Source: Bacillales bacterium (lineage in GTDB: Bacteria > Bacillota > Bacilli > JARBTR01). Taken from it: 64,000 bases of DNA. The notes beneath the pieces are model-generated. The model worked only from the letters and a program-made list of their open reading frames with translations. It did not search any database and was not told where the DNA came from. Numbering within the stretch: position 1 is the first letter of the stretch; each line of letters starts with the position of its first letter. A program made the translations under genes and the position numbers. Below, piece after piece: positions 11,446-48,540 of this stretch. The stretch is from the NCBI GenBank assembly GCA_029240105.1, contig JARBTR010000002.1:268394-332393 (forward strand). The letters run 5' to 3'.

Positions 11446-11600
11446 TCATATACCACCTATTAATTGTTAGTCGAAGTTTATTATACATTCTTTCATAAAA
11501 TGTATATAGCCTTTCTCAAAAAAATACATATTTTTATTTGATAGTACTAGACATATATTTTTTAAAGAACCCAACATTAAGCATAAGCTTATAAAAAAAA

Positions 11601-11616
11601 GTGGCGTTTAAGCCAC
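11601..11616 (-). terminator. Rho-independent terminator ending the hya-hyp operon
   Basis: GTGGC-gtttaa-GCCAC hairpin, followed on the minus strand by a U9 run, 40 nt after the hypE stop. Confidence 0.5.
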
Positions 11617-11658
11617 TCGGATTTTTAAAAATTAATTTTTTTTTTGTTATTTGTTATT

Positions 11659-12660
11659 CTAACAAATTCTTGGAAGCATAACTCCAGCCAAGCGCGATAA
11701 TCTACGCTTTGCTCCAAGTGGTGTTTCAAGCATAAGTTGTCCAATCCCAATTTCAGAAACGGATCCAATTTTAGTGGCATTTTGACCGGTTTTAAATTCT
11801 TTCATGATAGTAAGTACTTTTTCTTCGTCCTCTTGTGCGCAAATAATAATAACTTTACCTTCATTGGCCATATAGAGTGGATCAAATCCTACAATATCAC
11901 ATGCTCCGTGAACTTCATTACGAATAGGAATATTACGTTCTTTAATAATTATCTTACATTGAAAATCTTCTGCAATTTCCACTAAGGATGTTGCAAGTCC
12001 ACCTCTAGTAGGATCACGCATAATTCTTATTGAAGCAACTTCAGCTTGGAGTTTGTCAATCATATCAGTCAAGACTGCACAATCACTTTCAATATCCGAA
12101 GTAATACCAAGTTGTCCCCTTGCTGTCATAAGGGCGACGCCATGATCACCGATCGTTCCATTAATTAAAACAGAATCTCCAGCCTGAATTTCATATGGAT
12201 TTGGTCGTTTATGAACGTACATTCCAACTGCAGTAGTATTGATAAACATACCATCAGCACTACCCTTTTCAACTACCTTTGTATCTCCTGCAACAATTTT
12301 AACCCCAAATTTATCTGCTTCATCACGCATCGATTTAACTATTGTTTTTAGGTCATCTACTGAAAATCCCTCTTCAATAATAAATCCGCAAGTAAGATAC
12401 ATTGGTTTCGCACCAGATACAGAAATATCATTTAATGTACCGGTAATCGCAAGTTTTCCAATGTTACCTCCTGGAAAGAATAAAGGTTTTACAACAAATG
12501 AATCTGTTGACATAACTACTTCACCACTTGTCCATGGCATAGTTGCAGCGTCAAAAATTGCTTCTTTTTCACTTGAAAATGGCTCAACAAATACAGCTTG
12601 AATCAATTCATGAGACTGCTCTCCGCCATCTCCATGTGCCATCGTTATAAATTTTTCCAT
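11659..12660 (-). CDS. hypE: [NiFe]-hydrogenase maturation protein HypE (carbamoyl dehydratase)
   Basis: 333 aa. AIR-synthase-like fold and the conserved C-terminal PRIC. Confidence 0.9.
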   Translation of the reverse strand: MEKFITMAHGDGGEQSHELIQAVFVEPFSSEKEAIFDAATMPWTSGEVVMSTDSFVVKPLFFPGGNIGKLAITGTLNDISVSGAKPMYLTCGFIIEEGFSVDDLKTIVKSMRDEADKFGVKIVAGDTKVVEKGSADGMFINTTAVGMYVHKRPNPYEIQAGDSVLINGTIGDHGVALMTARGQLGITSDIESDCAVLTDMIDKLQAEVASIRIMRDPTRGGLATSLVEIAEDFQCKIIIKERNIPIRNEVHGACDIVGFDPLYMANEGKVIIICAQEDEEKVLTIMKEFKTGQNATKIGSVSEIGIGQLMLETPLGAKRRLSRLAGVMLPRIC

Positions 12661-12678
12661 GGTTCTAGTTTCTCTCCT

Positions 12679-13788
12679 TTATTCCTCACGCATAAAGTTG
12701 TAGTAGGCAGCACAAGATCCCTCAGATGATACCATACAAGGTCCTATTGGATTCACTGGTTTACACGCCTTACCAAACAATGGACATGCTGGTGGCTCTA
12801 TCAATCCACGAATAATTTCCCCACATTTACACTTTGTTTTTCTTGCTTCTGGTATCTCAATATCAAACTTTCTCTTAGCATTAAATTGGTTAAATTCCGG
12901 TTTAAAGTCCATTCCACTTTTTGAAATAACACCCATTCCACGCCAAGGTTCATCAGCTATTTCAAAAAATTCAGCCATTAAATCTTGGGCTACTTTGTTC
13001 CCTTTTTTCGATACTACAAATGGATAGTCATTAATGATTTCTGCTTTTCCGCTAAGTAAACAATGTGTGAGTCGGTAAAGTCCACTCAATAGTTCAACTG
13101 GCTCAAATCCACTAATAATACCTGGTACATTGTACTCGTCTCTTAAAAAGTGATAAAACTCTTCACCAGTGACAATTGAAACATGGCCCGGCAACAAAAA
13201 TCCGTCCACTTTTACTTCACCTAAGCTAATTAGGTAACGTAAAATTGGCTCAACCAACTTTGTATTCATCCAAATTGAATAATTTTCTACATCTAATCTC
13301 ACAGCTTCTTTAATAGATGCTCCAAGAAGTGGAATCGTAGTCTCAAACCCTATACCAAGGAAAACAACTTCCTTAGTTGGATTTTCACGTGCAATTTTTA
13401 CAGCATCCAATGGACTATAAACGATTCGTACATCTTTACCTTGAGATTTTGTTTGCATCAATGTGTAGCGACTTCCAGGTACACGCATCATATCTCCAAA
13501 AGTGCAAACGATAACATTTTCTTTGTTCGATAATTCTATCATCGAATCTATAGAGGTTTGGTCTGTAACACAAACTGGACATCCAGGGCCAGCTATTAAG
13601 TGAACATGATCTTTGATTGCATACTTTACCCCGGATTTTGCAAATGCCTGCGTGTGAGACCCGCAAACTTCCATCAAAACAGGCTTTCGTCCGTGTTTTG
13701 CGTAAAATAAATCAGCAACTTCTTTTACTTTATCTAGCAACTCAATGGAAAAATCAGCATCGCTAAACTTTTCTAAAATTTCTTTCAT
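12679..13788 (-). CDS. hypD: [NiFe]-hydrogenase maturation protein HypD
   Basis: 369 aa with conserved CGxH, GPGCPVC and CPVC motifs. Confidence 0.9.
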   Translation of the reverse strand: MKEILEKFSDADFSIELLDKVKEVADLFYAKHGRKPVLMEVCGSHTQAFAKSGVKYAIKDHVHLIAGPGCPVCVTDQTSIDSMIELSNKENVIVCTFGDMMRVPGSRYTLMQTKSQGKDVRIVYSPLDAVKIARENPTKEVVFLGIGFETTIPLLGASIKEAVRLDVENYSIWMNTKLVEPILRYLISLGEVKVDGFLLPGHVSIVTGEEFYHFLRDEYNVPGIISGFEPVELLSGLYRLTHCLLSGKAEIINDYPFVVSKKGNKVAQDLMAEFFEIADEPWRGMGVISKSGMDFKPEFNQFNAKRKFDIEIPEARKTKCKCGEIIRGLIEPPACPLFGKACKPVNPIGPCMVSSEGSCAAYYNFMREE

Positions 13789-13811
13789 TCGGATACTCCT
13801 TCAGATAGAGA

Positions 13812-14081
13812 TTAACGGTTTACAACGGGATTACTTTCCCCAATTGGTGATTGCCCACCAGCTTCACGTGCTTCTGTTATCATTTTCCATGTTTCTAAGC
13901 TTTCTAAAGCTGCTTCTTCATCAATAATGGACATAGCTTGTCCTGCATGTACGATGACATAGTCTCCCACTTTAACATCCTGAACAAATATGATGCCTAC
14001 AGTCATTTTTGATCCCATAACATCTACAACAGCTTGGTATTCTTCCTTTTCAATAACTTTTGCAGGTACTCCAACACACAT
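13812..14081 (-). CDS. hypC: [NiFe]-hydrogenase maturation chaperone HypC
   Basis: 89 aa starting MCVGVPAKV (the essential N-terminal Cys2). Confidence 0.85.
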   Translation of the reverse strand: MCVGVPAKVIEKEEYQAVVDVMGSKMTVGIIFVQDVKVGDYVIVHAGQAMSIIDEEAALESLETWKMITEAREAGGQSPIGESNPVVNR

Positions 14082-14125
14082 TTGTAAAATCCCCTTTTTT
14101 TACTAAAATTTGAATTACTATTGCA

Positions 14126-16372
14126 TTAAACTCTTATTGCAGCTGCTGCAACAAGTTGACCATAAGATAGACCACCATCGCCTGTTGGCACATTTATATG
14201 ATGGTAAACATCATAACCGAATCTAGTTAGTTCTTTTGTTAATTCACTTAGAAGATACATATTGTGAAAACTACCACCAGATAGGACAACTTTACCAGGC
14301 TGTAGAGCATATAATTTTTTAATAAAGCTTTCTACTATCGTTTTTTGGAACTTCCCAGCAATTTTACTTATAGGAACCCCTTCATTTTTATCTCGAATGA
14401 TTTCAGTAATCATTTTTCCAAAATGTAAGGTATCATCAATCCAGTGGATAGAATAAGTTTCATTTGTTTCTTCCGCAACTTCTGATAGTAAAATAGCAGC
14501 TTGTCCATCATATGTGCTTATTTCACAAATTCCTAATATCGCACTAACAGCATCATATAAACGTCCACAAGATCCGGCTAGTGGTGAATTGATACCCTTT
14601 TGGACCATCTCATTCATGACTGAAATCAGATTTTCTTTACCTGGAAATTGTTGATTAGCCATTTTATATCCGACTTGTCCATATAAATGGATTAGCATCC
14701 CTACTGCATTTCTCCATGGCTCACGAACAGCTTTGTCCCCACCTGGTAGTGGCGTATAATTCAAATGGCCAATTCTATTAAACTCTCTCTTGTTACCATA
14801 GAAAATTTCATATCCCCAAATATTGCCGTCAAGCCCAAACCCTGTGCCATCTAATATGATTCCATAACAATTTTCAGATATATTATTTTCTTCCATGCAT
14901 CCAGCCATATGTGCATGGTGGTGCTGAATTTCAATAACCTCATTGAATGAGTATGATTTTGCTATATTTCTAGTGGCATAAAGTGGATGTTTATCGATAA
15001 CAGCAGTTTGATTAGGAACAGTTGTCCATTGCATTAAATGATAAAGCTCATTCTTGAAATGATCCTCCATTTCAATATGATCCATTTCACCAATATGTGG
15101 ACCTATAATAATCTGTTCGCCACGACCTATTGCAAAAGTATTTTTCATCTGCCCACCAAAGGCAACAATACCGTTCACATCCTGTGAAGCGTTTAAGGGA
15201 TCAGGTGAAAATCCTCTTGAACGCCTGATAATAGTAAGCTCTTCTCCATTACATTCAACAACAGAATCGTCAATCGGATGAAGAATTTCTCTGTTATGCA
15301 TTAAAACACAGTCAGCTATATCTTTTACATATTCAAATGCCTCTGAATCTCTGTATAGAATTGGCAATCCAGAAGGGTTTGCACTAGTTGCAATAATAAA
15401 TGGCAATGTTTTTTCATCTAACAACAGGTGATGCATAGGTGTATATGGTAGCATAATCCCTATCTTACTTGTTCCAGGTGCAACTGAATTTGCTATCGTT
15501 TCAATACTATTCTTTTTTAATAATACAATTGGTGCTTCAGGAGATGTTAAGATACTTTCCTCAAACTGAGATATATTTGCAATTTTTTGAGCAAACTGTT
15601 TTGAAATCGCCATAATAGCCAATGGTCGGTCAGGACGATTTTTTCTTAATCTTAAAAGTCTAACAGTTTCTTCATTAGTTGCATCACAACACAGGTGGTA
15701 ACCACCAATCCCTTTTATAGCAACTATTTTACCTTCTAATAACAACTTTCTTGTTTCATGAACAATATCGTTCACTTGAATTTCATTTCCTGTAATTTCA
15801 TATAATTTGAGCTGTGGACCACATTTTGGACATGCAATCGGTTGGGCATGATGCCTTCTATTTAGAGGATCATTGTACTCTTTTGCACAATCGTCACACA
15901 TCGGAAAGTTTTTCATTGAAGTTACAGGGCGATCGTAAGGAAGACTAGAAATTATCGTATATCTTGGACCACACTGAGTACAGTTTATAAAAGGATAATT
16001 ATATCGGAAATTTGAGGGGTCCCTCATCTCTTCCAAACATTCGTCACAAACAGCAGCGTCAATTGGGATAACTAACGAAGAACTTCCCTTTGATTCACTC
16101 GGAATAATTGTAAAATCATCAAATGCTTCATATGAAGCTTCAAATGATTTTATTTCTGTGATTTTTGATAGTCTTGGGGATTTCAGTCTAATATCTGAAA
16201 CAAAAGACTCTAGATTTTGAAAACTGTCTGACTCAACATGAATTTTTACACCATCCATGTTGTTTTGAACTGTACCTTTTAGTCTATATTGATCGGCTAG
16301 TGAAAAAATAAAAGGACGGAATCCAACACCTTGAACCCGCCCCTTTACTGTTACTTTTATTGCTTTTGACAT
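14126..16372 (-). CDS. hypF: Carbamoyltransferase HypF
   Basis: 748 aa. Acylphosphatase domain, two Zn-finger CxxC pairs, YrdC and Kae1-like domains. Overlaps hypB by 16 nt. Confidence 0.9.
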   Translation of the reverse strand: MSKAIKVTVKGRVQGVGFRPFIFSLADQYRLKGTVQNNMDGVKIHVESDSFQNLESFVSDIRLKSPRLSKITEIKSFEASYEAFDDFTIIPSESKGSSSLVIPIDAAVCDECLEEMRDPSNFRYNYPFINCTQCGPRYTIISSLPYDRPVTSMKNFPMCDDCAKEYNDPLNRRHHAQPIACPKCGPQLKLYEITGNEIQVNDIVHETRKLLLEGKIVAIKGIGGYHLCCDATNEETVRLLRLRKNRPDRPLAIMAISKQFAQKIANISQFEESILTSPEAPIVLLKKNSIETIANSVAPGTSKIGIMLPYTPMHHLLLDEKTLPFIIATSANPSGLPILYRDSEAFEYVKDIADCVLMHNREILHPIDDSVVECNGEELTIIRRSRGFSPDPLNASQDVNGIVAFGGQMKNTFAIGRGEQIIIGPHIGEMDHIEMEDHFKNELYHLMQWTTVPNQTAVIDKHPLYATRNIAKSYSFNEVIEIQHHHAHMAGCMEENNISENCYGIILDGTGFGLDGNIWGYEIFYGNKREFNRIGHLNYTPLPGGDKAVREPWRNAVGMLIHLYGQVGYKMANQQFPGKENLISVMNEMVQKGINSPLAGSCGRLYDAVSAILGICEISTYDGQAAILLSEVAEETNETYSIHWIDDTLHFGKMITEIIRDKNEGVPISKIAGKFQKTIVESFIKKLYALQPGKVVLSGGSFHNMYLLSELTKELTRFGYDVYHHINVPTGDGGLSYGQLVAAAAIRV

Positions 16373-17016
16373 GCGTTATAGGCGTCCTTTATCCACTGAA
16401 TCCATGTGTCAAATCCTTCTCCACTTCGAGCTGAAAGTGAAATAATAGAAGAATTCGCATTTAATGCTTCTAAATCTTTTTTAGCCATTTCAATATCAAA
16501 ATCAACAAAAGGTAATATATCAATTTTGTTCAATAACACCAATTCTGTTCTCATAAACATGGTTGGATACTTTGGAATTTTATCATTTCCTTCTGGCACG
16601 CTTAAAACAGCTACCTTATGTGTTTGCCCTAAATCATATCCTGAAGGACAAACAAGGTTACCAACATTCTCAATAAAAAGAATATCAACCTCAGAAAAAT
16701 CAAACTCTGGTAATACGGATGCAATCATACGTGCATCTAAATGACAACCACCATGTGTATTAATCTGCACAGCTTGTGCGCCAGTTTCACGGATACGATC
16801 TGCATCTTGACTCGTCGCTAGGTCACCTTCAATTACAGCAATCTTAAATTCTGAGGATAATCTTCGGATTGTTTCACAAAGAGTTGTTGTCTTACCAGCA
16901 CCTGGTGAACTCATTAAGTTCACTACTAAAGTGTTTGTTTTTGTGAACAAATCTCTGTTGAAATCAGCAGACAAATTGTTATTTGTCAAAACATCAGTAC
17001 GAAGTTCTACTTTCAA
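16357..17016 (-). CDS. hypB: Hydrogenase nickel-incorporation GTPase HypB
   Basis: 219 aa with P-loop GAGKTT and a CH motif. No His-rich stretch. Confidence 0.85.
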   Translation of the reverse strand: MKVELRTDVLTNNNLSADFNRDLFTKTNTLVVNLMSSPGAGKTTTLCETIRRLSSEFKIAVIEGDLATSQDADRIRETGAQAVQINTHGGCHLDARMIASVLPEFDFSEVDILFIENVGNLVCPSGYDLGQTHKVAVLSVPEGNDKIPKYPTMFMRTELVLLNKIDILPFVDFDIEMAKKDLEALNANSSIISLSARSGEGFDTWIQWIKDAYNACQKQ

Positions 17017-17021
17017 AAAAA

Positions 17022-17372
17022 TTAACTCCCTTCATAGGACTTTACTTGGAAAGTCTCACCTTTGATTAAATTCCCAGTCGGCATGCCGCATCCTGGGCAA
17101 ATTGTGATCTTTCGATCTGGTATATAAGTAGTGTTGCACTCAATGCAACATGCTACAGCTTCTTCAATGTCAAATTTTATTTCTGCACTTTGATCAAAAA
17201 TGTGATTATATTGTTCTTTATAAATACTGAATGCCATTTCAAGTGCTTCTGGCATTGCTTGACTTAATTTCCCTACTGTTAATTCAACCTTTGTTACTTT
17301 TGAAAATCCTTGTCTTTGAGCATCCTCCCAAACTATCTGAAGAATGTCACCCATTAAAGCCATTTCATGCAT
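17022..17372 (-). CDS. hypA: Hydrogenase nickel-insertion protein HypA
   Basis: MHEMALMGDIL... N-terminus with a CxxC-N13-CxxC zinc site. Start is more likely the second ATG (17372, RBS AGGA 8 nt upstream) than 17381. Confidence 0.8.
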   Translation of the reverse strand: MHEMALMGDILQIVWEDAQRQGFSKVTKVELTVGKLSQAMPEALEMAFSIYKEQYNHIFDQSAEIKFDIEEAVACCIECNTTYIPDRKITICPGCGMPTGNLIKGETFQVKSYEGS

Positions 17373-17439
17373 TTTATTCATCCTACTTTATATGACATTA
17401 GTAAAACAGATGGGTTCAAGATTATTATACTTGAACCAT

Positions 17440-17856
17440 CTATTTTCTTCTAATATACCATTTTTCATTTCTTTTTTTTATTTCAGTTCTAGTAACCTCT
17501 AAGTCTCCTTCGAAATTTACTAGAGAAAGTGATTGATCACAAATAAAGCATTTTGCCTTTTTGTCAAAAGCGGTGATCATTATCAAACTTTTACAAGTTG
17601 GACATTGTTTTTTGAATGCTTGAATGTTTTCACCTTGGATTATCAAATTAAAGGATTCATCAGCAAGATAAAAATCACGAACTCCCCACTCAATAGTTGT
17701 ATCAATTGGAGGTAGCTCAGACCATTTTTCACCACTTAAAATGGATGATGCATCATCTACTTGTTCAACTTTTTCTTCTAAAAAAGGAGAAAAAATACCT
17801 TTTAATGTTTCGCCAAAGCTATTCTTCATTTCTTTCAAAAAATCACTACGATTCAT
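17440..17856 (-). CDS. Uncharacterized hydrogenase-operon protein with a C-terminal Cys4 zinc-ribbon
   Basis: 138-151 aa ORF between hyaD and hypA, in the same orientation. CPTCKS-N13-CFICDQ motif. No family recognised. Confidence 0.5.
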   Translation of the reverse strand: MNRSDFLKEMKNSFGETLKGIFSPFLEEKVEQVDDASSILSGEKWSELPPIDTTIEWGVRDFYLADESFNLIIQGENIQAFKKQCPTCKSLIMITAFDKKAKCFICDQSLSLVNFEGDLEVTRTEIKKRNEKWYIRRK

Positions 17857-18331
17857 TTGATCTCCAAGACTCAACAATTTTTTTAACTTCTTCAATAAGT
17901 AATTTTGCTGTCTCTTTACCTTGATCGGTAACTTCTGGGCAAAGCGCTAGTGAATACGGCTGCATACCTATCATTATGATATTCTTTGGATATTTATCCC
18001 TGAATTGAGCAGCAGCTAAAACTTCAGCAAACCCCATTTGGTGAATAGACATTTTTACACCAAAGTATTTAGGTATTTCTTCGCCTTCAATTCGTATGAA
18101 TGTCCCAGGCTCTTTACCAGCGTTAATAGCATCAATAATTAATAAATTTTCTGTTTCTTCAACAAAGGTTAGCAATTTCATTCCATCGGTCGAACCGTCT
18201 TCAACTAAAACATCTTCACACTCACCAAAGATTTGTTGAAGAAAGGGGATACAGTATACACCGATCCCCTCGTCTGAATAAAGAGTATTGCCAATCCCAA
18301 GTATAGTAATCTTACTTGGTGAATTATTCAT
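17846..18331 (-). CDS. hyaD: Hydrogenase maturation endopeptidase (HyaD/HybD family)
   Basis: 161 aa. ILGIGNTLYSDEGIGV motif. Overlaps the cytochrome b gene by 4 nt. Confidence 0.8.
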   Translation of the reverse strand: MNNSPSKITILGIGNTLYSDEGIGVYCIPFLQQIFGECEDVLVEDGSTDGMKLLTFVEETENLLIIDAINAGKEPGTFIRIEGEEIPKYFGVKMSIHQMGFAEVLAAAQFRDKYPKNIIMIGMQPYSLALCPEVTDQGKETAKLLIEEVKKIVESWRSNES

Positions 18332-19038
18332 TCTCTTACTAGGTAATCTTCACGGAAAGCTAAGTAGATATGAGCTACCATGAATATCATTGTTCCCCAT
18401 GCAGCACCTTGATGCCAAATGTGCAATTTTACACTGTTTCCAAACACATGCGGTACCCAACCTAAAATGTAAGTATTCATCATAAAATGTGTACCTTGTT
18501 GTGGTTCGAAGAACATGTAAAGACCTGTAATACTTAAAATGATTGAACATAATCCAAAGAAAATCCAATATGCAAATTGAGCTAAAGCGTTATGACCAAT
18601 TGTATGAGGTTTTTTGTTTGGTAAGAAAATATAAAACTTAAGAGATTCCCATAATCCACGGATAAATCCAGGTTTATAAATATCAAAAGTTGTATAACGA
18701 TTTCCTACAAAAGTCCAGTATATGCGGAATAACAGTGCCGCCATAAAGACAAATCCAGTAACGAAATGGACCCATCTTAACCATCCCATTAGGAAATCAG
18801 TTGCATGAGTTTCAAATCTTGCACTAGAGAATGCAAGAGCGATATACAAACCAGTAAACATTAAGACGATTATCGCTAAGAAGTTAACCCAGTGCCAAAT
18901 TCGAACTGGAAGTTCCCATACAAGAACCTTAACTTTTCCATCGCCTAAATCTTTAATTTTCGCTTGGCGTTTTGGATTATAAAAGTCCTCATAGTTATGA
19001 GCACCGAAGATATGATCCATTAGTCCTTTTTTCTTCAT
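18328..19038 (-). CDS. hyaC: Ni/Fe-hydrogenase b-type cytochrome subunit (HyaC-like membrane anchor)
   Basis: 236 aa with four TM helices and conserved His ligands. Positioned after the large subunit. Confidence 0.8.
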   Translation of the reverse strand: MKKKGLMDHIFGAHNYEDFYNPKRQAKIKDLGDGKVKVLVWELPVRIWHWVNFLAIIVLMFTGLYIALAFSSARFETHATDFLMGWLRWVHFVTGFVFMAALLFRIYWTFVGNRYTTFDIYKPGFIRGLWESLKFYIFLPNKKPHTIGHNALAQFAYWIFFGLCSIILSITGLYMFFEPQQGTHFMMNTYILGWVPHVFGNSVKLHIWHQGAAWGTMIFMVAHIYLAFREDYLVRE

Positions 19039-19174
19039 TCGTTTTCCCTCCTATAGTTTAGATTTAGAAGAAAATTATGCCTATCTCTTTACGCTAATTG
19101 CATATGAGTTAGATTTCTAACTCATATACAATTTTTATTAAGAAATTTATATTTTTCTTCTACTTTTGTGTCTA

Positions 19175-20899
19175 TTAACCTAACTTGATTTCAGTTGTTT
19201 GTTTGTTTTCTAAATCCGTTAAGTGAACAGCACAAGCTAAACAAGGGTCGAATGAGTGAATTACACGAATGATTTCTAATGGTTGTTCTTTATCTGCTAA
19301 AGGAGTTCCCATTAGTGAAGCCTCATAAGGTGCAATTTGGTTTTCGCCTACACCTTTAGGTGAAGCATTCCAAGTAGTTGGAACGATTGCTTGATAATTA
19401 GCAGTTTTTCCATCTTCAATAACAATCCAGTGTCCTAAGAAACCGCGTGGTGCTTCAATTAAACCGCCACCTTTAGCTGTCTTAGGCCATGTGCTTGGAT
19501 CCCATTTAGAGCTATCAAATGTAGTTGTTTGACCGTTTTTGATTGCTTTTAACAGAGCGTCCATATCTTCACGGCCCCAGTCAGCAATCAACTTCGTTTC
19601 AAGACCACGAGCAGCTGTACGTCCAAGAACTGTAAACAAAGCAGAAATAGGAAGTCCTAATTTCTCTAATGTTCCATTAACAATATCTTGAATGTCCTTT
19701 TTACCAGCAGCATAACCAACTACCATACGTGCTAAAGGACCAACTTCCATTGGATGTCCCTTCCAACGAGGAGCTTTACACCAAGTGTATTTCTTATCTG
19801 TATCAAGGTTTTTGTATTCCTTTTTAGGACCTGTGTAATTGAAAGTTGTTTCACCATCATAAGGGTGCTTACCTTTGCCACCATCTTTTCCATCATAAGT
19901 GTACCAAGCATTATCAATATACTCTTGAATTTCTGATGGATCCTCAGGGTCTACAGGTAGAACATCATTTAAGTTTCCGTTTAAGATAGCACCACGAGGC
20001 ATACGGTATGATGGAACATCATTGAAATCTTTTGGAGCAAAATCTCCAATTGATAAGAAGTTTTGGATACCGCCACCATATGTAGCATCTTTATAGAAAC
20101 TTGCAATTGCTAACAAGTCAGGAATATAAACTTCGTTAATGAACTTGATACCATCATCAATTAATTTGCTAACATGCATTAATTTCTCTGCATGGATAGC
20201 ATTGTCAGAGTTGATATCGATTGGTGTAGCCATACCACCCACTTGGAAGTGAGGATGTGGGTTTTTACCACCAAGAATTGTGTGAACTTTAACGATTTCT
20301 TTTTGCCAATCTAAAGCTTCAAGGTAGTGAGCAACAGCCATTAAGTTTGCTTCTGCAGGTAACTTGTAAGCTGGGTGGCCCCAATATCCGTTAGCAAAAA
20401 TACCAAGTTGTCCACTTGTAACTAATTTTTTCACTTTATCTTGGATATCTTTGAAGTATCCAGGTGAAGATTTACTCCAAGGTGAAATAGATTGTGCAAG
20501 TTTAGATGTTGCTTCAGGATCAGCAGAAGCAGCACTAATTACGTCTACCCAGTCCAATGCATGTAAATGGTAGAAATGCACCACATGGTCATGCATATAT
20601 TGAGCTTCAAGCATTACGTTACGTACCAAATGGCCAGCAAGCGGAATTTTAATATCTAAAGCTGCTTCAACTGAACGTACTGATGCTAAGGCATGCGTTG
20701 AAGTACAAACGCCGCAGATACGTTGAATGAAAGCCCAAACATCGCGTGGGTCACGATCTTTAACAATTAATTCTAATCCGCGCACAGCTGTACCTGAACT
20801 GTATGCCTCTTTAATTATACCTTTTTCGTCGATATCAACTTCCACACGGAGGTGGCCTTCGATACGAGTAATTGGATCGACTACGATTCTTTCAGACAT
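19175..20899 (-). CDS. hyaB: [NiFe] uptake hydrogenase large subunit (group 1)
   Basis: 574 aa. N-terminal RICGVCTSTH (L1) and C-terminal DPCLACAVH (L2) Ni-binding motifs, followed by a 15-aa cleavable extension. Confidence 0.9.
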   Translation of the reverse strand: MSERIVVDPITRIEGHLRVEVDIDEKGIIKEAYSSGTAVRGLELIVKDRDPRDVWAFIQRICGVCTSTHALASVRSVEAALDIKIPLAGHLVRNVMLEAQYMHDHVVHFYHLHALDWVDVISAASADPEATSKLAQSISPWSKSSPGYFKDIQDKVKKLVTSGQLGIFANGYWGHPAYKLPAEANLMAVAHYLEALDWQKEIVKVHTILGGKNPHPHFQVGGMATPIDINSDNAIHAEKLMHVSKLIDDGIKFINEVYIPDLLAIASFYKDATYGGGIQNFLSIGDFAPKDFNDVPSYRMPRGAILNGNLNDVLPVDPEDPSEIQEYIDNAWYTYDGKDGGKGKHPYDGETTFNYTGPKKEYKNLDTDKKYTWCKAPRWKGHPMEVGPLARMVVGYAAGKKDIQDIVNGTLEKLGLPISALFTVLGRTAARGLETKLIADWGREDMDALLKAIKNGQTTTFDSSKWDPSTWPKTAKGGGLIEAPRGFLGHWIVIEDGKTANYQAIVPTTWNASPKGVGENQIAPYEASLMGTPLADKEQPLEIIRVIHSFDPCLACAVHLTDLENKQTTEIKLG

Positions 20900-20918
20900 T
20901 TTTTAAACCCTCCTAGGA

Positions 20919-22007
20919 TTAGTGATCTTCGTGCGTATTCTTTTTATCATCGATATTTTTCTTAACTGCTGTAGCTGCCCCATGAGCAACAACTGCTGCT
21001 GTAGCAACTCCTGTTACAACACCACCAATTACAGCTGGGTCAACAGTAGCAATTTTTTGCGGTAATGGAATATCAGCTAAACGCTCTGTAAATGAACCTG
21101 CATCCCAGAATCCATCTTCTGAACAGCCAATACATGGGTTACCAGAAAGGATTGGCATTGAAGTTCCACCATTCCATCTCATTTCCATACATGAATTGTA
21201 CGTTGTTGGGCCTTTACAACCTACTTTGTATAAACAATAGCCTTGTTTAGAAGCTTCGTCATCAAAGCTCTCAACGAATAATCCAGCATCAAAATATGCG
21301 CGACGGTTACATTTGTCATGAATACGATGTTTATAGAAAGCTTTAGGTCTTCCAAAACCATCAAGTTCAGGAAGTATTCCGAAAGTTAAGTAGTGTGCAA
21401 TTACACCAGTCATTACTTCAGAAATTGGTGGGCATCCTGGTACGATCATAACAGGAGTGTCACCTGAATCAAATGCAGTTACAGGTTTAGCATTAGTAGG
21501 ATTTGGCTTAGCACCAGCAATTCCTCCCCATGCAGAACATGAACCATAAGCAATTACAGCCAAAGCATTTTTAGCTACACGCTCGTAAATTTCATTTGCA
21601 GGTTTTCCACCTACCATACAGTAAATTCCATCTTCAGGAATTGATCCTTCAGTAGCAAGGATGTATTTTCCTTTATAATGTTCAATTACTGCCTCCATTG
21701 CCTCTTCAACTTGATGTCCAGAAGCAGCAGAAAGCACTTCAGAGTATTCAAGTGAGATAAGATCTAATACTACACTTTCTGTGGTTGGATGTGATGAACG
21801 AATAAACGATTCAGAACATCCTGTGCAATCTTGGAACTGTAACCAGATTACTGGTACCTTTTCTTTTGTTTCCATTGCGTTCACAACTTTATCAGTTTGT
21901 GAAAACTCAAGACCCATTGTCGCTGCTAAAGCAGTACACATTTTTAAAAAGTCTCTTCTAGAAACCCCTCTTTCGATTGCGGATTGAAACACAGATTTTT
22001 TTTCCAT
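20919..22007 (-). CDS. hyaA: [NiFe] uptake hydrogenase small subunit with twin-arginine signal peptide
   Basis: Tat motif SRRDFLK, FeS-cluster cysteines and a C-terminal hydrophobic anchor. ATG at 22007 with RBS GGGGGAG 8 nt upstream; the ORF-track start at 22013 is a TTG. Confidence 0.9.
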   Translation of the reverse strand: MEKKSVFQSAIERGVSRRDFLKMCTALAATMGLEFSQTDKVVNAMETKEKVPVIWLQFQDCTGCSESFIRSSHPTTESVVLDLISLEYSEVLSAASGHQVEEAMEAVIEHYKGKYILATEGSIPEDGIYCMVGGKPANEIYERVAKNALAVIAYGSCSAWGGIAGAKPNPTNAKPVTAFDSGDTPVMIVPGCPPISEVMTGVIAHYLTFGILPELDGFGRPKAFYKHRIHDKCNRRAYFDAGLFVESFDDEASKQGYCLYKVGCKGPTTYNSCMEMRWNGGTSMPILSGNPCIGCSEDGFWDAGSFTERLADIPLPQKIATVDPAVIGGVVTGVATAAVVAHGAATAVKKNIDDKKNTHEDH

Positions 22008-22494
22008 CCCCAATTCTCCCCCAATTCATAATTTTTTTGCGATGTAATATAAAAATATAATTGCAAAAACACCGCAATGATTTCGTAGAGCACTATATTT
22101 ACTCTACAAAGATGCATATATAAGAAATGAACACAGTAACCCCATATCCACCTCGATATATCAATAATATAAAAAATAAACTAATTTATGTACACTAATC
22201 CTCATCTTAAATATTAGTAGTATTCAAAATTTGAAACTATGACAAATGTTACACTTTTCCAATTAGATTACTAACTTATCATATAATTTCAATTAATTTT
22301 GATATCTTTAGATTACAAAAAAAGGCTGGGACATAAAACTCTAAAATCATTTTCTGTTTCCTTCCTGTGCGAAGTTACGAGCGAGCCTTCACGGCTGAGA
22401 ATTGCATTCTCAGTCTTTCGGATTCTCTTAATCCTTCTTTCCCAAAGGAGTCAAACAGATGATTTTGAGTATTATCCCAACCACTTTAAAAGGA

Positions 22495-23265
22495 CTATAC
22501 TGCATCATTTTCAAATTGTTTTTCCAATTCAGCCTCTTTTCTCAATTTTCTTCTATATACACCCTTCGAAAGTATGACTGAAAGCTCAAATAAAAGTATT
22601 AGAGGAATTGATACTAAAAAATCTGAAATTGGATCTGGTGGAGTTATTGTTACTGCTATTACTATTAGAATAAAATAGGATATTTTTCGAGCTTTTCCAA
22701 GTGCATTTGGATTAACTATACCAATTGTAGTTAAAAACATCATAACTAAAGGCAATTCAAAAAGCACACCAAAGGGTAACGTCATGTTTATTAAAAAACT
22801 AAAATATTCAGTTGCGGTGTATTGGATATAAAATAAACCTTCACCAAAGTTAATAACAAACCCAAGAAGCATAGGAAAAATGATAAAATAAGCAAATGAA
22901 ATTCCCAAAACAAAAGAGATAAAAAATGCTGGGATATAACCCAATGCAGCTCTTTGTTCAAACCTTTTTAATGCAGGTTTTACAAACAACCAAATCTGTG
23001 TCGCTATAACTGGAATTGAAAATACCAATGCTGTTATTAATGCAATTTTAAAATATATTCCTATAGTTTCGCTAGGTCTTAACACCTGAAGTTTTAATTC
23101 ATATTTTGCTAGAGGAAGTGTTAAAAATAAATATACTTTTTTGGTATAAGCAAAGGCTACAAAAAAGAAAACTACAAATGTAATCCCTGTAACAATTAGT
23201 CTATTACGTAATTCATCAAGGTGATCTAAAATACCCTCAACCTTTTCATTAGCCATACAATTCAT
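22495..23265 (-). CDS. tatC: Twin-arginine translocase subunit TatC
   Basis: 256 aa with six TM helices and a TatC N-terminal pattern. Directly upstream of the Tat-dependent hydrogenase. Confidence 0.85.
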   Translation of the reverse strand: MNCMANEKVEGILDHLDELRNRLIVTGITFVVFFFVAFAYTKKVYLFLTLPLAKYELKLQVLRPSETIGIYFKIALITALVFSIPVIATQIWLFVKPALKRFEQRAALGYIPAFFISFVLGISFAYFIIFPMLLGFVINFGEGLFYIQYTATEYFSFLINMTLPFGVLFELPLVMMFLTTIGIVNPNALGKARKISYFILIVIAVTITPPDPISDFLVSIPLILLFELSVILSKGVYRRKLRKEAELEKQFENDAV

Positions 23266-23371
23266 TCCTTAATTAAATAAAAATTAAACGAAAAGAAAAT
23301 AGAGTTATTAAAATATAATACTACAACAAATGGTGGGTTGAAGTTCCCACCATTCACTTAAGTTATTATTT

Positions 23372-23572
23372 TTAATCTTTTTTAACTTCTTCTTTTACAT
23401 CTTTTAATTCTTCTACAACATCATTCGTCAATTCTTTTGTAGATTTTTTAAATTCTTTTAAAGTTTGTCCGAATGCACGACCCATTTCGGGTAATTTCTT
23501 AGGTCCAAAAATGATTAATGCTAAGAAAACAATAAGAACTAAACCTGGGATACCAATATTACCAAAAGGCAT
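23372..23572 (-). CDS. tatA: Twin-arginine translocase subunit TatA
   Basis: 66 aa [29 protein letters not shown]... (TM helix, hinge FGP, amphipathic helix). RBS AGAGGGGG 8 nt before the ATG at 23572. The ORF-track 5' extension is unsupported. Confidence 0.8.
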
Positions 23573-25090: not shown

Positions 25091-25657
25091 CTAAGTACTT
25101 TCCTCATCCAAATAATTATCTGGATTTGTTTTATCGGTGTCTACTTCAATAACATCTACTTTTTTTATTTGACTTTTTAGTATGTCTTTAAGGACATCTT
25201 GTGCCATCTCTAAAATTGAAATAGATTCATAGATATTTGGTTCTTCCTCTTCCTTTAATTCAATTTCAACACTTTCATCGATGTCATTCAATTGAACTGA
25301 TTTAGTGAAGATAGAATTTAAATCTAAAGTAGAGTCTGGATTGGAGACAGAATCCATTAAATTTTTAATTAACACATCTGGATCCTGTGTCAAATCAAAT
25401 AACGTGAAATTTGTTGACTGGTTTGATACAGGCTCAATGATTTCAAAATTTAATTTCTCCGGTTTTTTTTCATTTTCCTTTTTTTCTTTATACTCTTCAA
25501 TTGCTTGTTCTTCTAGTACATTTTTAGTTTCATTTTTATTTAATTTATCTCGATTTGGTTTTCTGTAATGGAAAACCGTTTGCATTTTAGGTTGCTCTGC
25601 ACTAAAACTTGGTTGCTTGATGTTGATGAGAGGCTGATCTTTTTTATGGCTAACCAT
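25091..25657 (-). CDS. Hypothetical highly acidic, Lys/Glu/Asp-rich protein
   Basis: 188 aa. Basic N-terminus then a long acidic low-complexity region (EEEEPNIYES...DTDKTNPDNYLDEEST). Terminator downstream. Confidence 0.5.
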   Translation of the reverse strand: MVSHKKDQPLINIKQPSFSAEQPKMQTVFHYRKPNRDKLNKNETKNVLEEQAIEEYKEKKENEKKPEKLNFEIIEPVSNQSTNFTLFDLTQDPDVLIKNLMDSVSNPDSTLDLNSIFTKSVQLNDIDESVEIELKEEEEPNIYESISILEMAQDVLKDILKSQIKKVDVIEVDTDKTNPDNYLDEEST

Positions 25658-28982: not shown

Positions 28983-29609
28983 CTATTTTATTGATTGAAC
29001 AAAAATCTTCTCAAAATCGGTTTTCATTTTATCTTTACCTTTTAATTGAAGATGTATATCTTTTAATGCCTCACAATTTTTCTTTGTTTGAAGCCATAGC
29101 TTTAAATATCCATTTTCGCCATATTTTTCTTCAATATGCTGATACGTTCTTTCAAAATGGTCTTCTTTACTTAGTTCTGGATAATGTTTTAATCCAAACT
29201 GAATGGTTCTAAAAAGGATTGTGTTGTAGTCAATCAAACGGTCTGCTTCTGCAACAATCATACCATATAGACTTCTAGGGGCTGTTTTATTGGATGCACG
29301 ATGATCCTCAACAGCTTCTTTCATCTGTTCAAGTTGTTCGTTATTAAACCACTGCTTTAACTTCTGGTCCTCTATAAGTAACTTACCTGAATTTATCTCA
29401 TGTTTTTCTCTTCCAAACTGGAGTCCCAAATCATGGTAGGCTGCAATCACATAAACCATTTCCATATCTACAGGATATTCCTTAGCTATTTCAAGGCTTT
29501 GGTCAATAACTATCCTTGCATGATCTATCTGATGTGCTTTATCGAATTGTGAATAAGTTGGAAGAATAGTATTTTCTATATATTTTTGTATTTCTTTTCT
29601 AATATTCAT
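28983..29609 (-). CDS. HD-domain phosphohydrolase (YpgQ-like)
   Basis: 208 aa with an HD motif (AAYHDLG). Confidence 0.75.
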   Translation of the reverse strand: MNIRKEIQKYIENTILPTYSQFDKAHQIDHARIVIDQSLEIAKEYPVDMEMVYVIAAYHDLGLQFGREKHEINSGKLLIEDQKLKQWFNNEQLEQMKEAVEDHRASNKTAPRSLYGMIVAEADRLIDYNTILFRTIQFGLKHYPELSKEDHFERTYQHIEEKYGENGYLKLWLQTKKNCEALKDIHLQLKGKDKMKTDFEKIFVQSIK

Positions 29610-29684: not shown

Positions 29685-29955
29685 AAGGTTAACGTCTTAT
29701 AAGCCATGTTCTGTTCCATTGCACTACATTCGGCTACGCCTCGTGCTTTGGTGATAATCATCTATCTTCAGATTGCTCTGACCTTCCCGCCATTTAATTC
29801 TTTTAGGAAGATTCCCCTACCAATTTTGGGTTTCTAACTGCCCTAGCTTATGACTTCACTAGGCACGAACACTACTGCCATCTCAGGACAGTGCGAGCAT
29901 GGACTTTCCTCAACGCATTCTAGATGCGCAGCAATTATCCAGACGTTAATTCAAT
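29685..29955 (-). ncRNA. rnpB: RNase P RNA (type B catalytic domain only; apparently lacks the P7-P12 specificity domain)
   Basis: The reverse complement reads 5'-UUAACGUCUGGAUAAUUGCUGCGCAUCUAGAAUGCGUUGAGGAAAGUCCAUGCUCGCAC...ACAGAACAUGGCUUAUAAGACGUUAA-3'. P1 pairs UUAACGUCU with AGACGUUAA. Both P4 strands are present (AGGAAAGUCCAUGCUC and ACAGAACAUGGCUUA). P5.1, P15-P19 segments align with B. subtilis rnpB. A U8 run follows. Position between ypsC and gpsB matches the B. subtilis rnpB locus. Confidence 0.8.
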
Positions 29956-48334: not shown

Positions 48335-48540
48335 TATTTTTCCTCATTTTTCAAATTCTACTTAAAGAATTATAAAAGAAATTGAGTGGAATGCAAACAA
48401 ATTAAGAAAAACTAATATATTTACTGTTCGTTCATTCACATAGCATGCAAATTTCATTAATGTGCCAAACATTTAAAAAACACATCATTTATAGGATTTA
48501 AGGCCTTAAAAATGATGTGTTTGCTTAAATGTTATTTAAA

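What the first reader, a model, noticed from the sequence alone, without database searches (positions are those of the whole stretch)
11659..23572. About 12 kb uptake-hydrogenase island: tatA-tatC followed by an 11-gene hyaA-hyaB-cytb-hyaD-orfX-hypA-hypB-hypF-hypC-hypD-hypE operon
A complete, co-oriented set for a membrane-bound group-1 [NiFe] hydrogenase sits between degV/rsgA-like genes and plsC/dfrA. It comprises a Tat-signal small subunit (SRRDFLK), a large subunit with L1/L2 motifs and a cleavable C-terminal tail, a b-type cytochrome, a dedicated maturation protease and all six Hyp proteins. A dedicated tatA-tatC pair lies immediately upstream. The operon ends in a single terminator at about 11601-11616, and several gene junctions overlap, suggesting translational coupling. 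No nickel transporter and no HoxA/HupUV-type H2 sensor or regulator are present in the window. Relative to B. subtilis, which has no hydrogenase, this is accessory DNA.
Basis: partly seen in the sequence, partly recalled or inferred. Interest (0 to 1): 0.55.

Follow-up and report, generated by a model that had tools for sequence, protein, structure and literature searches.

The report
Ordinary Bacillales uptake-hydrogenase gene cluster
This is a complete, intact gene set for a membrane-bound hydrogen-consuming nickel-iron enzyme. It is the same 13-gene arrangement already published for Parageobacillus and shared by dozens of Bacillales species at the same chromosomal site, so it is a dispensable module rather than recently imported DNA.

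Summary
On the minus strand, 11659-23572 holds tatA, tatC, then hyaA-hyaB-cytb-hyaD-orfX-hypA-hypB-hypF-hypC-hypD-hypE, ending in one terminator at 11599-11618. The window comes from a 'Bacillales bacterium' metagenome-assembled genome. The arrangement matches the published Pha locus of Parageobacillus thermoglucosidasius gene for gene, and 65 fetched Bacillales loci keep the same 11-gene order.

The 'island' reading is only partly right. Thirty-two species carry the cluster at the same site, with thyA-dfrA(-plsC) upstream; 19 of these also have degV directly downstream. Relatives exist with only tatAC-ypmP-degV or with thyA-dfrA-degV. GC3 and codon usage match the rest of the window. There are no mobility genes, tRNAs, border repeats or close plasmid copies. 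It is a dispensable module at a fixed site, most simply old with repeated loss.

Two details go beyond the finding.
- The small subunit lacks both extra cysteines that define oxygen-tolerant group 1d enzymes, as do all Bacillales orthologues examined. Yet a 70%-identical orthologue is published as HydDB group 1d, 'O2-tolerant'.
- orfX belongs to a small, uncharacterised, hydrogenase-linked family. It has a Rieske fold, CxxC...CxxC ligands and a twin-arginine-like N-terminus.

Overall this is a new member of a known kind, of low interest.

The parts
23372..23572 (-). tatA (66 aa, starting at the ATG at 23572)
   Evidence: PF02416 72.5 bits; NF011430 96.3 bits against a cutoff of 62. The family match begins at residue 33 of the longer GTG ORF, which places the start at M31.
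22495..23265 (-). tatC (256 aa)
   Evidence: PF00902 201 bits; TIGR00945 186 bits against a cutoff of 133.
22014..22494 (-). 481-nt non-coding spacer between tatC and hyaA, presumed to hold the hya promoter and leader
   Evidence: Sequence read. A sigma-70-like site lies at 22194-22166, but such sites are not enriched. No Rfam hit. The FNR-like box at 22238-22253 is at chance level.
20919..22013 (-). hyaA, [NiFe] hydrogenase small subunit. It has the Tat signal SRRDFLK, a predicted cleavage site VNA|METKEK, and a C-terminal membrane helix containing a His. The likely start is the ATG at 22007.
   Evidence: TIGR00391 443 bits; PF01058 and PF14720. The alignment to HoxK starts at the mature N-terminus and covers the C-terminal anchor. 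Gly replaces both supernumerary Cys (DCTGCSES, WGGI).
19175..20899 (-). hyaB, [NiFe] hydrogenase large subunit (574 aa)
   Evidence: PF00374 742 bits. L1 and L2 motifs and a 15-aa C-terminal extension. The best solved relative is 3myr_B at 746 bits, followed by 1d enzymes at 635-685 bits.
19097..19133 (-). 17-bp stem-loop in the 136-nt hyaB-cytb spacer, with no U-tract
   Evidence: RNA fold -21.5 kcal/mol, z = -8.6. It is conserved in L003, with one change that keeps pairing as G-U.
18328..19038 (-). cytb, b-type cytochrome membrane anchor (236 aa). It is C-terminally shortened relative to its relatives.
   Evidence: TIGR02125 162.5 bits against a cutoff of 121.5. A 68-nt deletion relative to L003 removes the conserved NGTMSSIxxGYK tail. 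The invariant His residues are retained.
17846..18331 (-). hyaD, large-subunit C-terminal maturation endopeptidase
   Evidence: PF01750 98 bits; TIGR00072 125.5 bits.
17440..17856 (-). orfX (PhaE orthologue, 138 aa): a Rieske-fold protein with CxxC-x14-CxxC and the N-terminus MNRSDFLKEM
   Evidence: Syntenic in all 65 complete Bacillales loci. Invariant residues are M1, R3, F6, P24, C85, C88, C103 and C106. The AF2 domain model has pLDDT above 88. The top 50 Foldseek hits are all Rieske-domain proteins.
17022..17381 (-). hypA, nickel metallochaperone
   Evidence: PF01155 87.5 bits.
16357..17016 (-). hypB, nickel-insertion GTPase
   Evidence: TIGR00073 272 bits against a cutoff of 121.
14126..16372 (-). 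hypF, carbamoyltransferase
   Evidence: TIGR00143 780 bits against a cutoff of 466.
13812..14081 (-). hypC, chaperone
   Evidence: TIGR00074 81 bits against a cutoff of 48.
12679..13788 (-). hypD
   Evidence: TIGR00075 422 bits against a cutoff of 193.
11659..12660 (-). hypE
   Evidence: TIGR02124 422 bits against a cutoff of 252.
11599..11618 (-). intrinsic terminator closing the operon
   Evidence: 7-bp stem with 4 GC pairs, followed by UUUUUUUU. -10.5 kcal/mol.

Best explanation
This is a chromosomal respiratory H2-uptake [NiFe] hydrogenase module of the type found in Bacillales (the Pha/Hup type).

Maturation. HypA-F build and insert the NiFe(CN)2CO centre into the large subunit HyaB. HyaD then cuts off the 15-residue C-terminal tail.

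Export. The small subunit HyaA carries three Fe-S clusters and a twin-arginine signal. It carries the folded HyaAB dimer across the membrane through a Tat translocase, probably the TatA-TatC pair encoded just upstream.

Function. The enzyme is held on the outer face of the membrane by the HyaA C-terminal helix and the dihaem cytochrome b. Cytochrome b passes electrons from H2 to menaquinone.

Shown here: gene identities, motifs, gene order, the terminator, and synteny across species.

Inferred from established knowledge of these families: the catalytic direction, the export route and the quinone coupling.

Further inference. The proximal cluster has only the four canonical cysteines. The enzyme is therefore predicted to be a standard O2-sensitive type serving anaerobic or microaerobic respiration, not a true O2-tolerant 1d enzyme.

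Origin. The module sits at an old, fixed site in the thyA-dfrA...degV backbone of Bacillaceae. It has most likely been inherited vertically and lost repeatedly.
For: - Family assignments exceed curated cutoffs for 10 of the 13 genes, and Pfam or superfamily models cover HypA and HyaD. orfX has no family hit.
- L1 and L2 motifs, the Tat motif and the C-terminal tail are read directly from the sequence.
- The small subunit aligns to HoxK from its mature N-terminus through the C-terminal anchor.
- The 11 genes plus upstream tatAC match the published Pha locus (L001).
- 65 loci are colinear. 32 have dfrA upstream, 22 have degV downstream, 19 have both, and 9 have thyA-dfrA after hypE.
- Backbone and module divergence go together. 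L003: DegV 89%, HypE 89%. L086: 63% and 79%. Neobacillus: about 55% and 58%.
- Composition is not distinct from the rest of the window.
- The small subunit has Gly at both supernumerary-Cys positions. The best PDB hit is the HoxK variant that has Gly at both positions (8pou), one of the Cys-to-Gly MBH variants deposited as 8POU-8POZ.
- The same holds in 65 fetched loci (all but one Bacillales) and, at the second position, in 5 more whose first motif is SC[ST]GC. Cys6 outgroups carry CTCC and NGC.
Against: - No activity, expression or localisation data exist for this organism.
- The cytochrome b lacks a conserved C-terminal tail. This could impair it, or it could be an assembly error.
- No nickel importer or regulator lies in the window.
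- The P. thermoglucosidasius orthologue is classified by HydDB as 1d, and most of its pha genes peak at 8 h in a CO/air culture. The aerobic timing of that peak is my reading, so some O2 tolerance by other means cannot be excluded.
- Vertical inheritance is inferred from synteny and co-divergence, not from a reconciled phylogeny.
Confidence: 0.8

Rival explanations
1. The segment is a horizontally acquired genomic island, inserted recently between plsC/dfrA and degV.
For: B. subtilis has no hydrogenase (established knowledge). Relatives lacking the module at this site exist: L091 has thyA-dfrA-degV and L090 has tatA-tatC-ypmP-degV. Mohr et al. note that the locus is absent from Geobacillus and other Parageobacillus.
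Against: The module occupies the same site in 32 species across several genera. GC3 and codon usage are indistinguishable from neighbouring genes. There are no tRNA genes, integrases or border repeats. No plasmid carries a HyaB above 60% identity. Module and backbone identities fall together across relatives.
Confidence: 0.08
2. The enzyme is a genuine O2-tolerant group 1d hydrogenase that feeds H2 electrons into aerobic respiration. This is how the literature describes the Parageobacillus orthologue.
For: HydDB classifies the 70%-identical PhaB as 1d (repeated in the paper read). The architecture is 1d-like: a cytochrome b plus an anchored small subunit. The nearest non-Bacillales relatives (60-62% identity by tblastn) are Cys6 enzymes. 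phaBCDEFGH peak at 8 h in a CO/air culture.
Against: Both supernumerary cysteines, which define the Cys6 [4Fe-3S] cluster, are Gly here and in the Bacillales orthologues examined. Published work ties O2 tolerance of MBH to that cluster (abstract). No HoxR-, HyaE- or HyaF-type accessory gene is in the locus. The closest solved large subunit is the A. vinosum enzyme, not a 1d enzyme.
Confidence: 0.25
3. The locus is decaying or non-functional in this organism.
For: A 68-nt deletion at the 3' end of cytb removes a tail that is conserved across genera. No nickel transporter or regulator is nearby.
Against: The other 12 ORFs are full length, with all catalytic and ligand motifs intact. The shortened cytb keeps its four membrane-helix region and the invariant His residues, and it ends cleanly on the hyaD start (ATGA overlap). 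The deletion might also be a MAG assembly artefact.
Confidence: 0.07

Closest known systems
Pha locus of Parageobacillus thermoglucosidasius DSM 2542 (PhaA-K with upstream TatA/TatC; Mohr et al. 2018, PMC6036681)
   Same: The same 11 genes are in the same order with tatA-tatC immediately upstream. HyaB is 70% identical and HyaA 69%. PhaE is the orfX orthologue, listed as '(2Fe-2S) ferredoxin [predicted]' with no domain hit. The small subunit is also Cys4.
   Different: thyA-dfrA lie downstream of hypE there and upstream of tatA here. In the window lineage there is a 136-nt hyaB-cytb spacer with a stable hairpin, and the cytb is shortened. orfX is only 29% identical.
O2-tolerant membrane-bound hydrogenases of group 1d (C. 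necator MBH HoxKGZ, E. coli Hyd-1, Salmonella Hyd-5, H. marinus MBH)
   Same: A three-subunit design: a Tat-signal small subunit with a C-terminal anchor, a large subunit and a cytochrome b. The small subunit scores 360-400 bits against them and the large subunit 635-685 bits.
   Different: The window protein lacks Cys19 and Cys120 of the [4Fe-3S] cluster. It also lacks the roughly 15-residue N-terminal extension of the large subunit, since the alignments start at residue 17 of the 1d chains. The locus has no HoxL/O/Q/R/T/V-type or HyaE/F-type accessory genes.
Allochromatium vinosum HydSL (PDB 3myr; recalled from memory as HydDB group 1e, Isp-type)
   Same: It is the best-scoring solved large subunit (746 bits), at 59% identity in my alignment. 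The N-terminus MSERIVVDPITRIEGHLR is identical. I recall that its proximal cluster is a standard Cys4 cluster; I did not check this here.
   Different: Here hyaA and hyaB are 19 nt apart and the third gene is a cytochrome b, not isp1/isp2. In the neighbour-joining tree, A. vinosum groups with the Bacteroidota and Verrucomicrobia sequences, not inside the Bacillales clade.
HucE/HhyE, putative iron-sulfur proteins of mycobacterial group 2a/1h hydrogenases (Islam et al. 2019, PMC6883350)
   Same: They are small hydrogenase-operon proteins with a C-terminal Rieske-like motif: CxH...CxxC in HucE and two CxxC motifs in HhyE. They are required for H2 oxidation. orfX likewise has a Rieske fold with two CxxC motifs.
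   Different: HucE and HhyE have an N-terminal NifU-like domain and belong to hydrogenases without a cytochrome b. orfX instead has a Tat-like N-terminal helix and coexists with a cytochrome b.

Membership tests
Group 1 membrane-bound respiratory [NiFe] uptake hydrogenase | Large-subunit L1 (RICGVCTxxH) and L2 (DPCxxCxxH) nickel-binding motifs | tested here: met
   QRICGVCTSTH and SFDPCLACAVH in the translation; PF00374 742 bits.
Group 1 membrane-bound respiratory [NiFe] uptake hydrogenase | Twin-arginine signal on the small subunit | tested here: met
   SRRDFLK; TIGR01409 23.3 bits against a cutoff of 16.7. The HoxK alignment begins at the predicted mature N-terminus.
Group 1 membrane-bound respiratory [NiFe] uptake hydrogenase | Cleavable C-terminal extension plus a dedicated endopeptidase | tested here: met
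   15 residues follow His559. HyaD: PF01750 and TIGR00072.
Group 1 membrane-bound respiratory [NiFe] uptake hydrogenase | b-type cytochrome membrane subunit | tested here: met
   TIGR02125 162.5 bits against a cutoff of 121.5. The conserved C-terminal tail is missing.
Group 1 membrane-bound respiratory [NiFe] uptake hydrogenase | H2 oxidation coupled to the quinone pool | not testable with these tools
   Needs enzyme or whole-cell assays.
HydDB group 1d (O2-tolerant) | HydDB classifier call | not testable with these tools
   HydDB is not available here. The published call for the 70%-identical PhaB is 1d.
HydDB group 1d (O2-tolerant) | Six-cysteine [4Fe-3S] proximal cluster (supernumerary Cys19 and Cys120) | tested here: not met
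   DCTGCSES and WGGI. The best PDB match is the HoxK variant with Gly at both positions. The same is seen across Bacillales loci, while Cys6 outgroups have CTCC and NGC.
HydDB group 1d (O2-tolerant) | Extra maturation genes typical of MBH operons (HoxR rubredoxin, HyaE/HoxO, HyaF/HoxQ) | tested here: not met
   Every ORF of the locus was scanned. None matches these families.
HydDB group 1e (Isp-type) | isp1/isp2 genes associated with the structural genes, in place of a cytochrome b | tested here: not met
   The hyaA-hyaB gap is 19 nt, and the third gene is a HyaC-type cytochrome b.
Recently acquired genomic island | Composition or codon usage distinct from the host | tested here: not met
   GC3 0.231 against 0.227 (Mann-Whitney p = 0.53). 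The codon-usage distance is exceeded by 7% of random same-size gene sets.
Recently acquired genomic island | Mobility genes, a tRNA target or direct repeats at the borders | tested here: not met
   No tRNA. No border repeats. The flanks are degV, rsgA, plsC and dfrA.
Recently acquired genomic island | Presence/absence polymorphism at the site among relatives | tested here: met
   L091 has thyA-dfrA-degV and L090 has tatA-tatC-ypmP-degV, against 32 species with the full module. This is also what repeated loss would produce.
Pha-type locus of Bacillales | Colinear hyaA-hyaB-cytb-hyaD-phaE-hypA-hypB-hypF-hypC-hypD-hypE | tested here: met
   65 loci are colinear with the window. The published description agrees.
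Rieske [2Fe-2S] proteins (for orfX) | Rieske fold | tested here: met
   AF2 model residues 41-138 have pLDDT of about 83-96. The top 50 Foldseek PDB hits are all Rieske-domain proteins; the best is 8hn2_A, E = 1.8e-4.
Rieske [2Fe-2S] proteins (for orfX) | CxH...CxxH cluster ligands | tested here: not met
   CPTC...CFIC. The four Cys are invariant in 31 orthologues. Distant members have CPxD...CxxC.
Rieske [2Fe-2S] proteins (for orfX) | Pfam PF00355 above its gathering score | tested here: not met
   The window protein gives no hit even at E <= 10. The hit on the Parageobacillus orthologue is 'faint'. Distant family members P0211 and P0224 do pass, at 29.2 and 22.1 bits against a cutoff of 20.3.

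The most novel reading that the evidence does not exclude
OrfX/PhaE may represent an undescribed class of hydrogenase-specific accessory protein in Firmicutes. It would be a Rieske-fold metal protein with Cys4 (or Cys3Asp) ligands. Its strictly N-terminal M-x-R-(R)-x-F-[LF]-K-E motif imitates the twin-arginine signal of the small subunit but has no hydrophobic core.

It could act at the Tat or assembly checkpoint, for example by occupying TatC or pairing with the HyaA signal peptide until the dimer is complete. That would replace the HyaE/HybE/HoxO-type chaperones that these loci lack. Alternatively, it could be an extra redox partner.

A second, more modest reading: the whole Bacillales clade, whose Parageobacillus member is labelled '1d, O2-tolerant' in the literature, may really be a Cys4, O2-sensitive subgroup.
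Probability: 0.15. Interest if true: 0.55.

Novelty: new member of a known kind. Interest (0 to 1): 0.2.

Why it matters
As a locus it adds little. It shows that an uncultured Bacillales lineage can probably respire H2, using a gene set already described in Parageobacillus and common in Neobacillus, Anoxybacillus, Sporolactobacillus and others.

Two by-products could matter to specialists.
- The 'group 1d, O2-tolerant' label has been carried into papers on Parageobacillus. In every Bacillales orthologue examined, the small-subunit sequence does not support it. This affects how the role of this enzyme in aerobic cultures and bioprocesses is interpreted.
- The one unannotated gene is a conserved, hydrogenase-linked Rieske-fold protein with a Tat-like N-terminus. 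It can be tested genetically in P. thermoglucosidasius.

Tried and rejected
- An exact look-up of HyaB in the contig index found nothing. The organism was identified instead from a 100%-identical NCBI protein.
- FNR-like and Rex-like operator boxes upstream of hyaA: a 2-mismatch FNR-like site lies at 22238-22253. Such sites are no more frequent in the window than in shuffles (30 found, 37 expected), and most Neobacillus loci lack them. I rejected this as evidence. Sporolactobacillus, Cohnella and Paenibacillus do have 0-1-mismatch boxes.
- The sigma-70 promoter scan is not enriched (39 found against 59 expected), so no promoter is claimed.
- The long multi-cysteine proteins hit weakly by the orfX profile are unrelated zinc ribbons.
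- The plasmid search, the repeat search, the tRNA scan and Rfam gave no sign of mobility or of RNA elements. The only Rfam hit was RNase P RNA at 29695-29946.
- The metagenome scan with DegV found no very close relative; the best hit is 63% identical. The hydrogenase-negative comparators are therefore related at about family level, not strain level.

Full report
**Observation**

Between 11659 and 23572, all on the minus strand, lie thirteen intact ORFs. Profile searches identify twelve of them unambiguously.
- TatA: PF02416, 72.5 bits.
- TatC: TIGR00945, 186 bits against a cutoff of 133.
- [NiFe] small subunit: TIGR00391, 443 bits, with the Tat motif SRRDFLK.
- Large subunit: PF00374, 742 bits.
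- HyaC-type cytochrome b: TIGR02125, 162.5 bits against a cutoff of 121.5.
- Maturation endopeptidase.
- HypA, HypB, HypF, HypC, HypD and HypE.

The large subunit has QRICGVCTSTH and SFDPCLACAVH, followed by a 15-residue tail. One ORF, orfX, between the protease gene and hypA, has no family hit.

The operon ends in a hairpin plus U-run at 11599-11618. Three junctions overlap: cytb/hyaD by 4 nt, hyaD/orfX by 11 nt and hypB/hypF by 16 nt. A 481-nt non-coding gap separates tatC from hyaA, so tatAC is probably transcribed on its own.

Pfam scans of the other 38 large ORFs show ordinary Bacillaceae core genes: comK, ymcA, recU, ponA, a DivIVA-domain gene (probably gpsB), ymdB, rny, recA, cinA, pgsA, ftsK, an RNase J gene, dapA, an aspartokinase gene and asd. 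They show no nickel transporter, HupUV sensor or HoxA-type regulator. The only Rfam hit is class B RNase P RNA.

**Source and closest relatives**

A 100%-identical large subunit is on record as 'MAG: Bacillales bacterium' on a 442-kb contig. The next relatives are 94% identical (metagenomes), then about 75% (Neobacillus and 'Bacillus' species), and about 70% (Parageobacillus thermoglucosidasius, Anoxybacillus, members of the B. cereus group).

Mohr et al. 2018 described the P. thermoglucosidasius Pha locus as eleven genes, PhaA-K, flanked upstream by TatA and TatC. HydDB classified it as group 1d. Fetching that locus shows the same genes in the same order as the window.

**How widespread the arrangement is**

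A scan of one genome per species with HyaB returned 80 loci. Mapping the window's proteins onto these and three loci fetched earlier gave the following.
- 65 loci are colinear for hyaA-hyaB-cytb-hyaD-orfX-hypA-hypB-hypF-hypC-hypD-hypE. They span Neobacillus, Mesobacillus, Niallia, Anoxybacillus, Parageobacillus, Rummeliibacillus, Schinkia, Ectobacillus, Thermoactinomyces, Cohnella, Paenibacillus, Gorillibacterium and Sporolactobacillus.
- tatAC lies upstream in 43 loci and downstream in 8 (Sporolactobacillus). It was not found in 32; several of those are contigs cut short on the upstream side.

**The island question**

- In 32 loci, thyA-dfrA lies just upstream of tatA. Four of these also have the plsC-like gene between them, as in the window.
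- In 22 loci, degV follows hypE. Both flanks are seen in 19.
- In Anoxybacillus and Parageobacillus (9 loci), thyA-dfrA follows hypE instead.

- L091 has ATLF-thyA-dfrA-degV-ypmR-ypmS, with nothing inserted.
- L090 has ilvA-tatA-tatC-ypmP-degV, with tatAC but no hydrogenase operon.
- L086 has degV next to hypE in convergent orientation.

So the site shows three states on one conserved backbone. By my recollection, which I did not check here, that backbone is the thyB-dfrA-ypkP...ypm region of B. subtilis.

Nothing points to recent acquisition.
- GC3 is 0.231 inside the cluster and 0.227 outside. The codon-usage distance is exceeded by 7% of random gene sets.
- There are no tRNAs, no border repeats and no mobility genes in the flanks.
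- No plasmid in PLSDB carries a HyaB above 60% identity.
- Backbone and module identities decline together. L003: DegV 89%, HypE 89%. L086: 63% and 79%. Neobacillus: about 55% and 58%.

The simplest reading is an old module at a fixed site that has been lost repeatedly. This agrees with Mohr et al.'s conclusion of vertical maintenance with a 'more complex' history. 'Accessory' is a fair description. 'Island', in the sense of imported DNA, is not supported.

**Subgroup and oxygen tolerance**

Among solved structures, the large subunit scores best against A. vinosum HydL (3myr_B, 746 bits). It shares with that protein an identical N-terminus that lacks the extension seen in 1d enzymes. Next come Salmonella Hyd-5, H. 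marinus MBH, E. coli Hyd-1 and C. necator MBH (635-685 bits). Hyd-2 and the Desulfovibrio enzymes score about 527 bits.

The small subunit scores best against C. necator HoxK, specifically against the engineered variant in which both supernumerary cysteines are Gly (8pou). PDB entries 8POU-8POZ are the Cys-to-Gly variants of that enzyme. The window protein reads DCTGCSES and WGGI where HoxK has CTCC and WGC.

The same holds in 65 fetched loci, all but one of them Bacillales. At the second position it also holds in the 5 Bacillales loci (Thermoactinomyces and two 'Bacillus' species) whose first motif is SC[ST]GC. The nearest non-Bacillales relatives, Verrucomicrobia and Bacteroidota at 60-62% identity, carry CTCC and NGC; one (L077) has Gly at both positions.

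In a neighbour-joining tree the Bacillales sequences form their own clade. Its sister group contains those Cys6 sequences and A. vinosum. That tree is crude, has few references and is midpoint rooted, so it does not settle 1d versus 1e.

The locus has the cytochrome b of the 1d design. It has no isp1/isp2 genes and no HoxR-, HyaE- or HyaF-type genes. Published work ties the O2 tolerance of MBH to the Cys6 [4Fe-3S] cluster (abstract). I therefore infer that this enzyme is a standard O2-sensitive type. Two papers describe the Parageobacillus orthologue as O2-tolerant on the strength of the HydDB label. I found no paper in the searchable library that notes the missing cysteines. This is an inference from sequence, not a measurement.

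**orfX**

By orthology the gene starts at the ATG at 17856 and encodes 138 aa. It is present at the same position in all 65 complete loci, at only 23-36% identity.

An alignment of 31 orthologues leaves eight invariant residues: M1, R3, F6, P24, C85, C88, C103 and C106. The N-terminus reads M-x-R-(R)-x-F-[LF]-K-E, for example MRRGDFLKEM, MNRRDFFKEI and MDRRSFLKEL. This is very close to the twin-arginine consensus found on the neighbouring small subunit. However, it sits at the very first residues, and a charged amphipathic stretch follows it rather than a hydrophobic core.

An AlphaFold model built on 26 sequences gives a confident all-beta domain: residues 41-138, block pLDDT of about 83-96. 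The N-terminal helices have low confidence. All of the top 50 Foldseek PDB matches are Rieske-domain proteins: cytochrome b6f/bc-type Rieske domains, dioxygenase Rieske ferredoxins and oxygenase subunits, and NirD. The ligand positions carry CxxC...CxxC rather than CxH...CxxH.

An exhaustive profile search of 1.8 billion representatives finds only about 65 clusters at E < 1e-10, all of roughly 135-150 aa. More distant members keep the N-terminal motif, have CPxD...CxxC, and in two cases pass the Pfam Rieske threshold. Two of them were located. One sits directly before hypABFCDE and the other directly before hyaA-hyaB-cytb-hyaD. The family is therefore tied to [NiFe] hydrogenase genes wherever it was examined.

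Mohr et al. list the orthologue PhaE as '(2Fe-2S) ferredoxin [predicted]' without a domain hit. The nearest functional precedent is HucE/HhyE of mycobacteria. Their C-termini carry Rieske-like or double-CxxC motifs, and they are required for H2 oxidation. Their N-terminal NifU-like domain is absent here.

I cannot assign a function. The candidates are a metal or redox accessory for maturation, or a role at the Tat or assembly checkpoint.

**Minor features**

- The window lineage has a 136-nt hyaB-cytb spacer with a 17-bp stem-loop (-21.5 kcal/mol, z = -8.6) and no U-tract. It is conserved in the 94%-identical relative, with a change that keeps pairing. In the two loci with gene calls (L001, L002) cytb starts 12 nt after hyaB. 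The hairpin is probably an mRNA-stability or processing element that separates hyaAB from downstream genes.
- The window's cytb is 236 aa against 259-268 aa elsewhere. A 68-nt deletion just before hyaD removes the conserved tail NGTMSSIxxGYK while leaving the invariant histidines. This may be real or an assembly artefact.

**Verdict**

The functional interpretation is supported. The 'island' label is only partly supported, because the segment is a dispensable module at a conserved, old site. The locus is a new member of a known, published kind, and the overall interest is low. Two modest leads remain: the Cys4 small subunit against the '1d, O2-tolerant' label, and the uncharacterised Rieske-fold OrfX/PhaE family.

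Noticed in passing
window 18328-18345 (3' end of cytb): A 68-nt deletion relative to the 94%-related locus L003 removes the last ~23 codons of the cytochrome b. The lost tail NGTMSSIxxGYK is conserved across genera. The shortened gene ends on an ATGA overlap with hyaD.
   Followed up: partly
window 19097-19133, minus strand: A perfect 17-bp stem-loop (-21.5 kcal/mol, z = -8.6) sits in an unusually long hyaB-cytb spacer, with no U-tract. It is conserved in L003 with a G-U-compatible change. In L001 and L002 the cytb gene call starts 12 nt after hyaB.
   Followed up: partly
window 17440-17856; L084 8001-8432; L085 2086-2511: The orfX/PhaE family has a Rieske fold, CxxC...CxxC (or CPxD...CxxC) ligands and a Tat-consensus-like extreme N-terminus. 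There are only about 65 clusters among 1.8 billion representative proteins. In the loci examined it is always next to hyp or hya genes.
   Followed up: yes
window 20919-22013 and the hyaA genes of L001-L072: All Bacillales small subunits examined have Gly at the second supernumerary-cysteine position of O2-tolerant enzymes, and 64 of them were also matched as Gly at the first (5 have SC[ST]GC there). The P. thermoglucosidasius orthologue is described as group 1d, O2-tolerant in the papers read.
   Followed up: yes
L090 837-3189; L091 470-2657: Two metagenomic relatives share the backbone but lack the hydrogenase operon. One keeps tatA-tatC-ypmP-degV. The other has thyA-dfrA-degV directly adjacent.
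   Followed up: partly
window 22014-22494: The tatC-hyaA gap is 481 nt, against about 220-300 nt in most relatives. It contains a chance-level FNR-like box (22238-22253) and a weak 13-pair hairpin (22154-22124). No Rfam family matches.
   Followed up: partly
window 48334-49436: The BPD_transp_2 permease ORF at 48768-49436 is short (222 aa, covering profile positions 5-195 of 269). A gap of about 430 nt separates it from the next gene. It may be a frameshift or a pseudogene in an ABC transporter operon.
   Followed up: no
window 29695-29946, minus strand: Class B RNase P RNA (151 bits). It lies between the HD-domain gene at 28983-29609 and a DivIVA-domain (gpsB-like) gene. The class is consistent with a Bacillales chromosome.
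   Followed up: no
window 25091-25657: A 188-aa ORF between dfrA and a methyltransferase gene. Its only match is a weak, sub-threshold hit to spore coat protein CotO.
   Followed up: no
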